Virus record (IMG/VR): IMGVR_UViG_2778261067_000009
From: a virus
Taxonomy: Duplodnaviria; Heunggongvirae; Uroviricota; Caudoviricetes
Direction: 5' to 3' (one strand)
DNA: 40,848 bases
A model generated the notes under the pieces. That model did no database searches. It saw nothing but the letters and a program-made list of their open reading frames with translations, and was not told the origin of the DNA. The translations under genes and the position numbers were made by a program. This document shows positions 37,532-38,450 of the stretch, in pieces; the first letter of the stretch is position 1, and every line of letters begins with the position of its first letter.

Positions 37532-37704
37532 GGGTCCTTTCCGGCATATGGACCCGTTACGGGGCGGCGACCTCGCGGTTTTTCGCTATTTATGAGCCTT
37601 TTCAGGGGGGTGGTGGTGGTTTTGTTGTTTGCTCTATCTTTATGAATGAAAAGGGAAAGATGCAAACAATACACCAACCTGAAGCAGTAATTAAGTTGGT
37701 GTAT
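37532..37704 (+). other. cos: Island cos site 1 (same orientation as prophage cos): cosQ GGGTCCTTTCCGG, cosN GGGCGGCGACCT (37562-37573), novel cosB with inverted repeat TACACCAAC-N17-GTTGGTGTA ending at the TerS start
   Basis: CCGTTACGGGGCGGCGACCTCGCGGTTTTTCGCTATTTATGAG nearly identical to the prophage/lambda cosQ-cosN; downstream R-site region differs completely from the prophage CCGGACATG repeats. Confidence 0.75.
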
Positions 37705-37706
37705 TA

Positions 37707-38249
37707 ATGAAATCGCACCTGATGAACAAAAAAAACATGGCGAAAAGCTGCCGTGTAAGTGCGACAGCGTTCGACAAGTGGGGAGTGACTCCCGTTGAAC
37801 GTAAAGGCCGTGAGGCGTTTTACGATGTTGCCAGCGTGATAGACAATAGGGTTAACAATGCAATTAGCCAGCTTACAAACGACAAAGGCGATATTGATGA
37901 TGATGAACTCTTACGAGTCAGGATCAGATTACTGACAGCACAGGCGGAGGCGCAGGAACTTAAAAACGAGCGCGATCGCGGTGACGTGATTGATACTGAG
38001 TTTTGCCTGTACGCGCTTTCAAAGCTGGCGAGTCAGATTTCATCAATCATGGACAGCCTCCCGCTTACTATGCAAAGGAGCTTCCCACAGATTACCCACG
38101 CCATGCTGGATAGGCTTAAAAGGGAAGTGGTTAAAGCCTGTAATGCCAGTGCCAGAGTTGCCGACAACCTCCCACAGATACTGGCTGATTACTTGAAAGA
38201 AACAACCGGAAACGTACCGGAAAAGTTGCTACAGAAGAAAGGCGAGTAA
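37707..38249 (+). CDS. Island-encoded terminase small subunit, lambda Nu1 homologue
   Basis: 180 aa; C-terminal ...DTEFCLYALSKLASQISSIMDSLPLTMQRSFPQIT...LPQILADYL... parallels the prophage Nu1 ...DTGFCIFALSKLAMALSSTLDSIPLSMQRQFPDLT...LPDLLDEYI...; N-terminal HTH region diverged. Confidence 0.8.
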   Translation: MKSHLMNKKNMAKSCRVSATAFDKWGVTPVERKGREAFYDVASVIDNRVNNAISQLTNDKGDIDDDELLRVRIRLLTAQAEAQELKNERDRGDVIDTEFCLYALSKLASQISSIMDSLPLTMQRSFPQITHAMLDRLKREVVKACNASARVADNLPQILADYLKETTGNVPEKLLQKKGE

Positions 38250-38389
38250 CAGACGCGCAATTATTGAACAAAACTGAGAAACGACATGAAAGCGTCATAA
38301 ATCGCCATTTTAGATGATTACCGTGTCGTTTCTTTTTATTGTGTATCTATTTAAAAACAAATAGTTATGTTCGAGAAGTACCGACATGC

Positions 38390-38450
38390 TTTTTCCAGAA
38401 AAATTTTCATAAACAGATAAAAACCGCGAGGTCGCCGCCCCGTAACGGGC
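38390..38450 (-). other. cos: Island cos site 2 in inverted orientation: cosN AGGTCGCCGCCC (38409-38420), cosQ-like on the right, lambda-type cosB elements on the left
   Basis: Reverse complement reads GGGTCCTTCCTGG..CCCGTTACGGGGCGGCGACCTCGCGGTTTTTATCTGTTTATGAAAATTTTTCTGG, then GAAACGACACGG and CATGTCGTTTC inverted elements resembling lambda cosB R sites. Confidence 0.7.

What the first reader, a model, noticed from the sequence alone, without database searches (positions are those of the whole stretch)
37532..38450. Two lambda-type cos sites in inverted orientation flanking the island TerS gene, with different cosB regions
cosN (GGGCGGCGACCT) with an upstream cosQ-like GGGTCCTT(T)CC(T)GG occurs three times in the window: the prophage (866-877), the island in the same orientation (37562-37573) and the island inverted (38409-38420). 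The island copies are only ~860 bp apart and face each other across the Nu1-like gene. Their cosB sides differ: cos1 has a novel TACACCAAC/GTTGGTGTA inverted repeat abutting the TerS start, whereas cos2 has lambda-like GAAACGACA/TGTCGTTTC elements and a GCATGTCGG motif resembling the prophage CCGGACATG repeats. One reading is dual packaging specificity: cos1 for the island TerS with helper TerL, cos2 for helper holoterminase, with opposite packaging polarity. Another is that cleavage at both releases the TerS segment. Either is unusual for a cos element.
Basis: seen in the sequence. Interest (0 to 1): 0.85.

Follow-up and report, generated by a model that had tools for sequence, protein, structure and literature searches.

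The report
Two facing cos sites in satellite
A small phage-parasite island next to phoQ carries two lambda-type DNA-packaging sites that face each other across its own small-terminase gene; this layout is already published for the related island EcCICFT073, and here one site looks private to the island and the other is a copy of a helper-phage site.

Summary
The two island copies are the cores of a 72-nt inverted repeat.

The element is an EcCICFT073-family phage-inducible chromosomal island (PICI) beside phoQ. The type element has the same convergent pair, published as cos1 and cos2, both shown functional (PMC6092414, PMC6739421). Those authors left open why there are two sites. So the architecture is known.

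What differs here:
- The gene between the sites is a full-length Nu1-family TerS, not Rpp.
- Its cosB1 repeats (ACACCAAC) were found only in islands, never in front of a TerL gene.
- cos2 is colinear with lambda cos (cosQ-cosN-R3-I1-R2-R1).

Across about 100 related loci:
- cos2 occurs in at least five alleles, three with phage counterparts found.
- It is missing or half-deleted in about half of the TerS-type islands.
- It is present in all 20 Rpp-type islands.
- A gene-less cassette occurs in both orientations, with breakpoints inside cosN.

Best reading: cos1 is the island's private packaging origin, and cos2 is an optional origin matched to a helper phage. Inversion prevents the pair from deleting the TerS gene.

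The parts
28449..29699 (+). Island integrase, the left end of the roughly 10.9-kb PICI
   Evidence: Pfam Arm-DNA-bind_3 6e-18 and Phage_integrase 2e-16. A 98.6%-identical island in L001 is annotated int, HTH, Icd-like, primase, SSB, PerC, capsid, decoration protein, TerS.
35672..37074 (+). Island gpE-like major capsid gene (35672-36727) and gpD-like head decoration gene (36739-37074), upstream of the packaging module
   Evidence: Pfam Phage_cap_E 1e-49 and HDPD 1e-17.
37531..37602 (+). cos1 core, the left arm of the inverted repeat: cosQ1 GGGTCCTTTCCGG at 37532-37544, cosN1 at 37562-37573, then the conserved CGCGGTTTTTCGCTATTTATGA
   Evidence: The same 46-mer occurs in 52 IMG/VR loci, both islands and lambdoid phages.
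37574..37706 (+). cosB1, island-type: GGTGGTGGTGGTTTTGTTGTTTG (37609-37631, at the R3 position), AATACACCAAC (37668-37678) and GTTGGTGTATT (37695-37705)
   Evidence: I4, I5. It has the same layout as the TACAACAAC cosB of phages L003, L006 and L022. The motif follows cosN in 66 loci, none of which has TerL downstream.
37707..38249 (+). Island small terminase (TerS, 180 aa, Nu1 family), occupying the slot that rppA holds in EcCICFT073
   Evidence: Pfam Phage_Nu1 1.2e-23. 47% identical over its full length to a phage Nu1 that lies just upstream of TerL. Its C-terminal half is 49% identical to the window prophage Nu1. No similarity to RppA and no match to any solved structure.
38268..38428 (-). 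cosB2, phage-type, read on the minus strand from cosN2: R3 GCATGTCGGTAC (38378-38389), I1-like AT-rich stretch (about 38343-38375), R2 GAAACGACACGG (38321-38332), R1 CATGTCGTTTCTC (38276-38288)
   Evidence: Column-by-column colinear with lambda cos and CFT073 phage 4 cos (alignments A1 and A2). About 86% identical to many phage cos regions from cosQ through R3 and I1.
38400..38471 (-). cos2 core, the right arm of the inverted repeat: cosN2 at 38429-38440, cosQ2 at 38458-38470
   Evidence: The flanking 40-mer is exact in 54 IMG/VR loci. It corresponds to the published EcCICFT073 cos2 sequence.
38505..38786 (+). Conserved 93-aa gene downstream of cos2. It was used to orient all related loci. Function unknown.
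   Evidence: No Pfam or PDB match.
836..1060 (+). cos of the co-resident lambdoid prophage, a candidate helper: cosQ 836-848, cosN 866-877, cosB with CCGGACATG repeats
   Evidence: Its cosB is nearly identical to the cosB of EcCICFT073 cos2.
1061..3470 (+). Prophage Nu1 (1061-1570) and gpA-type TerL (1485-3470), the enzyme the island TerS would have to recruit
   Evidence: Pfam Phage_Nu1 1e-18; GpA_ATPase 2e-56 and GpA_nuclease 1e-71.

Best explanation
This is the packaging module of an EcCICFT073-family, cos-type phage-inducible chromosomal island (PICI). It holds two independent packaging origins of different specificity.

cos1 (cosQ1-cosN1-cosB1) is the island's private origin. The island's Nu1-type TerS binds the ACACCAAC-type repeats of cosB1 through its N-terminal DNA-binding domain. 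It uses its Nu1-like C-terminal half to bring the helper's gpA-type TerL to cosN1. Packaging then runs rightward through terS and around the island concatemer to the next cos1.

cos2 is a complete lambdoid phage cos (cosQ-cosN-R3-I1-R2-R1) that a helper holoterminase of matching cosB specificity can use without any island protein. It packages the same concatemer leftward. It is an optional, exchangeable accessory that widens helper range.

The two sites are kept in inverted orientation because lambda-type termination needs cosQ upstream of cosN. Facing sites therefore cannot act as an initiation and termination pair. Two direct sites could: a run from one to the other would delete or duplicate the specificity gene.

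Status of the steps:
- Shown here: the anatomy, the homologies and the distribution among relatives.
- Shown by others for the Rpp-type relative: both sites support transfer, and only cos1 responds to the island protein.
- Inferred: TerS binding to cosB1, TerS binding to TerL, the polarity of packaging, and the reason for inversion.
For: Same architecture in the type element:
- EcCICFT073 has cosN(+) at L002:2559-2570, then rppA, then cosN(-) at 3298-3309, next to the same phoQ (99% identical).
- Deleting cos1 reduces transfer and deleting both sites abolishes it. RppA raises transfer of cos1 plasmids only (PMC6092414 and PMC6739421).

cos1 looks private to islands:
- The island TerS is Nu1-family. 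It is 47% identical over its full length to a phage Nu1 with TACAACAAC repeats and 49% identical to the prophage Nu1 in the C-terminal half only.
- The ACACCAAC cosB was found after cosN in 66 loci, never with TerL downstream.

cos2 looks phage-derived:
- It is colinear with lambda cos.
- Across relatives it occurs in at least five alleles: CCGGACATG, TACAACAAC, the prophage-4 (TerS-21) type, the window's hybrid of lambda-like and prophage-4-like elements, and CAGATCC. Each allele has its own matching set of R elements.
- The CCGGACATG and TACAACAAC alleles match real phages that carry TerL. The L010/L013 allele resembles CFT073 prophage 4.

Further support:
- Gene-less islands carry two phage-type cos sites of different type.
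- The gene, when present, always lies on the strand reading away from cos1.
- The TerS 3' end, cos2 and the start of the 93-aa gene together match at 80% coverage or more in 486 of 5,426 complete E. coli genomes.
Against: - cos2 is absent in 26 of 56 classifiable TerS-type IMG/VR loci, and reduced to half a cosN plus cosQ in at least 7. It is therefore dispensable.
- In EcCICFT073, deleting cos2 raised transfer by lambda and phi80, so cos2 can be a cost (PMC6092414).
- No phage in the collections searched matches the window's cosB2 over its whole length. The R2-R1 part has only lambda-like elements.
- In both genomes examined, the neighbouring prophage's cosB type differs from the island's cos2 type.
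- Nothing here shows binding or cutting by the island TerS.
Confidence: 0.62

Rival explanations
1. cos2 is a non-adaptive leftover. It was brought in when the specificity cassette was exchanged with phages by recombination through the conserved cos core. It is tolerated because an inverted cos is nearly harmless, and it is gradually lost.
For: - It is absent in 26 of 56 TerS-type loci and half-deleted in at least 7.
- L285 and L286 carry a point change in cosN2.
- Deleting cos2 increases EcCICFT073 transfer (PMC6092414).
- Cassettes are mosaics that include gene remnants, for example the rpp 3' fragment in the 524-bp class and in L068.
Against: - Where cos2 is present, cosN2 and cosQ2 are exact in nearly all loci.
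- Each allele keeps three matching R elements rather than decayed ones.
- All 20 Rpp-type loci keep cos2.
- Cloned EcCICFT073 cos2 confers phage-mediated plasmid transfer, and the double deletion is worse than the cos1 deletion alone (PMC6092414).
- L284 and L288 changed both cosN sites in the same way.
Confidence: 0.2
2. cos2 serves mainly in interference. As a high-copy, phage-type cosB-cosN on the replicating island, it draws helper terminase away from phage DNA, or provokes unproductive cutting and head-on collisions, and so lowers phage yield.
For: - cos2 carries genuine phage cosB alleles.
- It costs the island some transfer (cos2 deletion result, PMC6092414), as a decoy might.
- PICIs of this family are known to block helper packaging through Rpp (PMC6739421).
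Against: - Rpp alone accounts for interference in EcCICFT073: deleting c1503 restores plaques (PMC6739421).
- A decoy would be expected to match the resident helper, yet the neighbouring prophage's cosB differs from cos2 in both genomes examined.
- About half of the TerS-type islands do without cos2.
Confidence: 0.1
3. The convergent pair is a terminase-operated cassette. Cutting at both sites frees a 0.5-0.9 kb fragment with identical cohesive ends. That fragment can be rejoined in either orientation or swapped with the equivalent fragment of another island or phage, so packaging specificities are shuffled.
For: - A 524-bp gene-less cassette is found in both orientations, 4 loci each. The interior is 100% identical as a reverse complement, the flanks are identical in direct orientation, and the breakpoints lie inside the shared 25 bp around cosN.
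- Cassette types are mosaic between constant flanks.
- The same cosN change appears at both sites in L284 and L288.
Against: - Ordinary or phage-Red recombination across the 72-nt inverted repeat gives the same products, and the sequence cannot tell them apart.
- The two orientations differ by two fixed interior substitutions, which fits a single old event.
- No flipped Rpp or TerS cassette was seen in about 70 loci.
Confidence: 0.06

Closest known systems
EcCICFT073 cos1 and cos2 with RppA (Fillol-Salom et al. 2018 ISME J, PMC6092414; 2019 Mol Cell, PMC6739421)
   Same: - Same island family, with the same insertion site next to phoQ.
- Same upstream genes (gpE-like, gpD-like, a 137-aa gene) and the same downstream 93-aa gene.
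- Same convergent cosQ-cosN pair with two different cosB regions flanking one specificity gene.
   Different: - The gene here is a 180-aa Nu1-family TerS with a TerL-binding-type C-terminal half. It is not a 144-aa Rpp that must borrow the phage TerS.
- cosB1 is of the ACACCAAC type.
- cosB2 is a hybrid of lambda-like and prophage-4-like elements rather than the CCGGACATG type.
- The papers do not mention the orientation of cos2. They describe both PICI cosB regions as completely divergent from phage cosB. Here the EcCICFT073 cos2 cosB is nearly identical to that of the window's prophage.
Bacteriophage lambda and phage 21 cos (cosQ-cosN-cosB with R3, I1, R2, R1) and Nu1/gpA terminase
   Same: cos2 aligns with lambda cos element by element. 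cos1 followed by TerS has the phage order cosQ-cosN-cosB-Nu1. The island TerS belongs to Pfam Phage_Nu1.
   Different: A phage has one cos, followed by Nu1 and gpA. The island has two facing cos sites, no TerL, and a cosB1 specificity not found in any phage sampled.
cos-type SaPIs (SaPIbov5, and SaPIbov4 with two putative cos sites), as cited in PMC6092414
   Same: These are satellites that carry a copy of the helper's cos and are packaged by helper terminase without a TerS of their own. That is the behaviour proposed for cos2, and for the gene-less islands with two phage-type cos sites.
   Different: They are Gram-positive elements with an unrelated cos sequence and an HNH-dependent terminase (from my own knowledge). 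No private TerS-cosB pair sits beside the borrowed site.
pac-type SaPI TerS (SaPI-encoded small terminase that redirects helper TerL)
   Same: A satellite-encoded small terminase with its own DNA specificity that recruits the helper's large terminase. This is the mechanism inferred for cos1 here.
   Different: Headful (pac) packaging rather than cos. The protein family is unrelated, and a separate Ppi protein blocks the phage TerS (PMC6739421 discussion).
Satellite phage P4 cos
   Same: A satellite carrying the helper's cos for packaging by helper terminase (PMC6092414 discussion).
   Different: P4 has a single cos of P2 type, no TerS of its own, and an unrelated genome organisation.

Membership tests
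EcCICFT073-type Gram-negative cos PICI | A roughly 10-15 kb island with an integrase at one end, regulator and replication genes, and no lysis, tail or TerL genes | tested here: met
   Integrase, AAA_25 replication protein and SSB by Pfam. gpE-like, gpD-like and TerS by Pfam. No ORF longer than 466 aa between 28449 and 39300, and no TerL. The annotation of a 98.6%-identical island agrees.
EcCICFT073-type Gram-negative cos PICI | Same chromosomal site and same synteny of the packaging region as the type element | tested here: met
   phoQ downstream is 484/486 identical to CFT073 phoQ. CFT073 has the same gene order: capsid gene, decoration gene, 137-aa gene, cos1, specificity gene, cos2, 93-aa gene.
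EcCICFT073-type Gram-negative cos PICI | Induction, replication and transfer that depend on a helper phage | not testable with these tools
   Needs induction and transduction assays. A lambdoid prophage with gpA-type TerL lies about 5 kb from the island.
Lambda-type cos site | cosQ, the 12-nt cosN and a cosB with repeated R elements, in the lambda order and spacing | tested here: met
   cos2 is colinear with lambda across cosQ, cosN, R3, I1, R2 and R1. cos1 has cosQ and cosN exact, with three related repeats at the R3, R2 and R1 positions.
Lambda-type cos site | Staggered nicking by terminase that gives 12-nt cohesive ends | not testable with these tools
   Shown only indirectly for the EcCICFT073 homologues, by plasmid and island transfer assays (PMC6092414).
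Nu1-type small terminase (Pfam PF07471) | Sequence membership, and homology over the full length to a phage Nu1 encoded next to gpA | tested here: met
   E = 1.2e-23 and 84 bits against a cut-off of 30. 47% identity over 163 aa to the Nu1 of phage locus L003, whose next ORF is TerL.
Nu1-type small terminase (Pfam PF07471) | Binds its cognate cosB and binds TerL through its C-terminus | not testable with these tools
   Inferred from 49% identity of residues 61-167 to the prophage Nu1, and from the pairing of this DNA-binding-domain type with ACA(A/C)CAAC repeats in islands and phages.
Rpp (redirecting phage packaging) proteins | Sequence homology to RppA, RppB or RppC (139-154 aa, lacking a TerL-binding tail) | tested here: not met
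   BLASTP against RppA (c1503) gives E = 1.3. No PDB hit to the RppC structures. The length is 180 aa with a Nu1-like C-terminus.
Capsid-forming PICI (cf-PICI) | Encodes its own full capsid and packaging set, including TerL, portal and protease | tested here: not met
   Only gpE-like, gpD-like and TerS genes are present. There is no TerL, portal or protease ORF in 28449-39300.

The most novel reading that the evidence does not exclude
The facing cos pair may be a cassette operated by terminase itself. Cutting both sites releases a fragment whose two cohesive ends are identical. The fragment can then be rejoined flipped, or replaced by the equivalent fragment from a co-replicating island or phage. 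Terminase would then act as a cut-and-paste enzyme that shuffles packaging specificities among satellites and helpers.

This would explain three things seen here: the mosaic cassettes between constant flanks, the precise inversion with breakpoints inside cosN, and the matching cosN change at both sites in one lineage.
Probability: 0.08. Interest if true: 0.8.

Novelty: new variant of a known kind. Interest (0 to 1): 0.4.

Why it matters
The two-cos layout itself is published, so the finding is not a discovery of a new kind of element. [quoted passage not shown]"

[quoted passage not shown] One site is private to the island and is read by its own Rpp or TerS. The other is a genuine phage cos whose cosB can be swapped among helper specificities. 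The published description of the PICI cosB regions as "completely divergent" from phage cosB does not hold for cos2.

The work also identifies a common TerS-carrying variant whose cos2 junction matches 486 of 5,426 complete E. coli genomes, including O157:H7 strains. This variant probably recruits helper TerL directly rather than hijacking the phage TerS. These islands move virulence and defence genes, so knowing which helpers can package them matters for predicting their spread.

Tried and rejected
- **Species-representative genomes.** A peptide-pattern scan with the 137-aa upstream protein found 102 pattern matches but no confirmed relative. I got no cross-species survey, and I did not use the second scan.
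- **Solved structures.** PDB sequence searches with TerS, the 137-aa protein and the 93-aa protein gave only chance-level hits. This rules out close kinship to RppC but adds nothing else.
- **A third cosN-like site.** A 1-mismatch site about 4 kb upstream of cos1 in several relatives lies in a replication-gene coding sequence (..ITGGDPVEINPKYEKRF). It has no cosQ and is absent from the window. I rejected it as chance.
- **A phage with the window's exact cosB2.** Searches of INPHARED and IMG/VR found matches only from cosQ to the I1 region, about 86% over 119-123 nt. The R2-R1 part has no full-length phage counterpart. The CAGATCC allele likewise has only partial phage matches.
- **Recurrent or single inversion.** Backbone distances do not separate the two orientations, but recombination confounds this, and the interiors form two haplotypes that differ by 2 substitutions. 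The result is inconclusive.
- **Pairing cos2 alleles with co-resident prophage cosB types.** I abandoned this test.
- **Promoter and terminator scan.** It found only the cosN hairpins and no promoter for terS.
- **Literature on inverted cos sites.** A search for work on inverted cos sites in lambda returned nothing in the held library.
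Full report
**1. The observation**

The 12-mer GGGCGGCGACCT occurs exactly three times in the window: 866-877(+), 37562-37573(+) and 38429-38440(-). Allowing one mismatch, shuffles gave a mean of 0.28 matches, and none of 100 reached three.

The stated end of the finding (38450) misses cosQ2 at 38458-38470.

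The two island copies are the cores of a 72-nt inverted repeat, 37531-37602 and 38400-38471, 82% complementary. Each arm holds cosQ (GGGTCCTT..), cosN and the conserved CGCGG.TTTT..CT.TTTATGA.

Inside the repeat the sequences differ:
- cos1 has GGTGGTGGTGGTTTTGTTGTTTG. It also has a perfect inverted pair, AATACACCAAC and GTTGGTGTATT, that ends at the ATG of a 180-aa ORF (37707-38249).
- cos2, read on the minus strand, has GCATGTCGGTAC, GAAACGACACGG and CATGTCGTTTCTC.

**2. What the element is**

The window holds three things in order:
- the late region of a lambdoid prophage: cos at 866, Nu1, gpA-type TerL and the tail genes, running to about 23.5 kb;
- the host genes potA, pepT and roxA;
- a roughly 10.9-kb island running from an integrase (28449) to just before phoQ.

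The island encodes an integrase, an AAA_25 replication protein, SSB, a gpE-like capsid protein, a gpD-like decoration protein and a Nu1-family protein. It has no TerL, portal, tail or lysis genes.

This is the gene set and the insertion site of EcCICFT073, the type Gram-negative phage-inducible chromosomal island (PICI). I fetched the CFT073 locus and found the same layout: cosN(+) at L002:2559-2570, then rppA (c1503, 144 aa), then cosN(-) at 3298-3309, then the same 93-aa gene, then phoQ.

**3. What is already known**

[quoted passage not shown] Their results were:
- Deleting cos1 cuts transfer by lambda and phi80.
- Deleting cos2 raises transfer.
- Deleting both sites abolishes it.
- Either site, cloned on a plasmid, allows phage-mediated transfer.
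- RppA binds the phage TerS and raises transfer of cos1 plasmids but not cos2 plasmids. Swapping cosB regions maps this effect to cosB of cos1.

Their supplementary cos2 sequence corresponds to the reverse complement of L002 around 3300.

The papers never mention orientation; the words "inverted" and "orientation" have zero occurrences. They call the PICI cosB sequences "completely divergent" from phage cosB. [quoted passage not shown]". A later review of PICI cos sites does not discuss cos2.

**4. How the window's island differs**

The protein between the sites is not an Rpp. BLASTP against RppA gives E = 1.3, and there is no hit to the solved RppC structures.

It is a Pfam Phage_Nu1 member, E = 1.2e-23. 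It is 47% identical over its whole length to the Nu1 of a lambdoid phage group (L003, L006, L022, L041, L050), where the next gene is TerL.

It matches the window's own prophage Nu1 only in the C-terminal half: 49% identity over residues 61-167. In lambda Nu1 the C-terminal part holds the TerL-binding region (PMC6739421, PMC9026076).

The phage group has cosB repeats TACAACAAC, GTTGTTGTA and GGTTGTTGTTT. The island has TACACCAAC, GTTGGTGTA and GGTGGTGGTT at the corresponding positions. So cos1 plus TerS is a diverged copy of a phage cosB-Nu1 pair.

An IMG/VR scan for the island's repeat found 66 loci in which it follows cosN. None has TerL downstream, although 10 were too short to judge. In this sample the specificity is private to islands.

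**5. cos2 is a phage cos**

Aligned with lambda, the window's cos2 is colinear through cosQ, cosN, R3, the AT-rich I1 region, R2 and R1. Its proximal half is about 86% identical to many phages with the CFT073 prophage-4 type of R3. PMC9026076 calls that prophage's TerS "TerS-21". The R2 and R1 elements of the window's cos2 are lambda-like (TGTCGTTTC).

The cosB of EcCICFT073 cos2 is almost base-for-base the cosB of the prophage in this window (CCGGACATG type). The window's cos2 in turn resembles the cos of CFT073's resident phage 4. So cos2 is not an orphan sequence. It is a lambdoid phage cos of another specificity group.

**6. Survey of relatives**

Six IMG/VR scans gave about 100 island loci, which I oriented by the 93-aa gene. 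This is a redundant sample.

| Class | cosB1 | cos2 | Loci |
|---|---|---|---|
| RppA (144 aa) | Rpp type | CCGGACATG type | part of 20 Rpp loci, all with cos2 |
| Rpp (146 aa) | Rpp type | TACAACAAC type | part of the same 20 |
| TerS | ACACCAAC | three alleles: window type, prophage-4 (TerS-21) type, CAGATCC type | 29 of 56 classifiable loci |
| TerS | ACACCAAC | none; the 93-aa gene follows TerS directly | 26 of 56 |
| TerS | ACACCAAC variants | only half of cosN2 plus cosQ2 | at least 7 (one among the 56) |
| Gene-less, 524 bp | one phage-type cosB | the other phage-type cosB | 8 |

Further points:
- Two of the Rpp-type loci carry a one-base variant in cosN2.
- The three cos2 alleles of TerS-type islands all share the same junction with the TerS 3' end.
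- The loci without cos2 are described, and the half-deleted ones.
- The gene-less cassette pairs one TACAACAAC-type cosB with one CCGGACATG-type cosB.

Among complete E. coli genomes, 486 of 5,426 match the stretch spanning the TerS 3' end, cos2 and the start of the 93-aa gene at 80% coverage or more. The junction without cos2 is also common.

Each cos2 allele keeps three mutually consistent R elements. That looks like maintained function, not decay. The frequent absence shows the site is optional.

**7. Inversion of the cassette**

The gene-less cassette occurs in both orientations relative to constant flanks:
- L004, L007, L015 and L021 have the TACAACAAC cosB at cos1.
- L008, L020, L034 and L053 have it at cos2.

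In the direct L004 versus L008 comparison, the interior is 100% identical as a reverse complement and the flanks are identical in direct orientation. The breakpoints therefore lie inside the shared CCCGTTACGGGGCGGCGACCTCGCG.

No Rpp or TerS cassette was found flipped. This fits selection to keep the gene co-oriented with its cos and with the upstream operon.

In L284 and L288 both cosN sites carry the same G-to-T change. The two sites therefore evolve in concert.

These facts fit recombination across the repeat. They also fit rejoining after a double terminase cut. With facing sites, the excised fragment has two identical overhangs, so it can be put back either way. The sequence cannot distinguish the two routes.

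**8. Mechanism I commit to** (confidence about 0.6)

cos1 is the island's private origin. The island TerS binds cosB1 and brings helper gpA to cosN1, and packaging proceeds rightward.

cos2 is an optional second origin. A helper holoterminase whose TerS matches cosB2 can use it, with packaging proceeding leftward.

Lambda-type termination needs cosQ ahead of cosN, so facing sites cannot pair as start and stop. Direct repeats could, and would delete or duplicate the specificity gene. The binding steps, the polarity and this reason for inversion are inferences. The functionality of both sites is shown only for the Rpp-type relative.

Rivals:
- a tolerated recombination leftover (about 0.2);
- a terminase decoy serving interference (about 0.1);
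- a terminase-operated invertible or exchangeable cassette (about 0.06).

It is therefore not a productive route in itself.

**9. Verdict**

The architecture is already published for the type element.

The window shows a common TerS-bearing variant. The comparisons add a testable account of the second site, namely that it is a phage-type cos with exchangeable cosB. Interest is moderate.

Noticed in passing
window 866-877 and 37562-37573: The prophage cos and the island cos1 are co-oriented and 36,696 bp apart. To my knowledge this is close to the lower size limit for lambda-type packaging. In-situ packaging from the prophage cos to the island cos1 could in principle carry the late genes, potA-pepT-roxA and most of the island in one particle. 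Thirty-three complete E. coli genomes share the prophage, potA-pepT-roxA and island-integrase arrangement.
   Followed up: partly
window 35672-37074: The island encodes a gpE-like major capsid protein (351 aa, Pfam 1e-49) and a gpD-like decoration protein (111 aa, 1e-17), as does EcCICFT073. The 2018 paper states that EcCICFT073 lacks capsid morphogenesis genes and is packaged in full-sized heads. What these two proteins do is unexplained.
   Followed up: no
L004, L007, L015, L021 versus L008, L020, L034, L053 (IMG/VR islands): A 524-bp gene-less cassette bounded by the two cosN sites occurs in both orientations. The interior is 100% identical as a reverse complement (L004 versus L008), the flanks are unchanged, and the breakpoints lie within the 25 bp shared around cosN.
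   Followed up: yes
L284 (about 9500-10400) and L288: Both cosN sites of an Rpp-type island carry the same substitution (GGGCGTCGACCT), so the two facing sites change in concert. In L285 and L286 only cosN2 is changed (GGGCGACGACCT).
   Followed up: partly
L056, L060, L062, L066, L074, L075, L076: In a sub-lineage of TerS-type islands with a different upstream gene (AlpA-like), the TerS stop codon is followed directly by ..CCGCCGCCCCGTAACGG plus cosQ2. The cosB2 region and about 4 of the 12 cosN2 bases have been removed cleanly.
   Followed up: partly
L068 (about 9750-10400): This island has cos1 with the CCGGACATG phage cosB and the first codons of a phage Nu1 fused to the 3' part of rpp. It is followed by a TACAACAAC-type cos2. 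This mosaic shows recombination between phage and island cassettes.
   Followed up: no
window 37506-37529: A GC-rich hairpin (GCCGGA-GAAA-TCCGGC) followed by seven T residues sits immediately upstream of cosQ1 and is conserved in CFT073. It looks like an intrinsic terminator between the 137-aa gene and cos1-terS. The consensus scan did not list it and found no promoter for terS. How terS is transcribed is therefore unclear.
   Followed up: no
L003, L006, L022 versus window 1061-1570: Phages with TACAACAAC-type and CCGGACATG-type cosB share a nearly identical Nu1 C-terminal half but have unrelated N-terminal DNA-binding domains. So the pairing of cosB with the DNA-binding domain is swapped as a module among the phages too.
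   Followed up: partly
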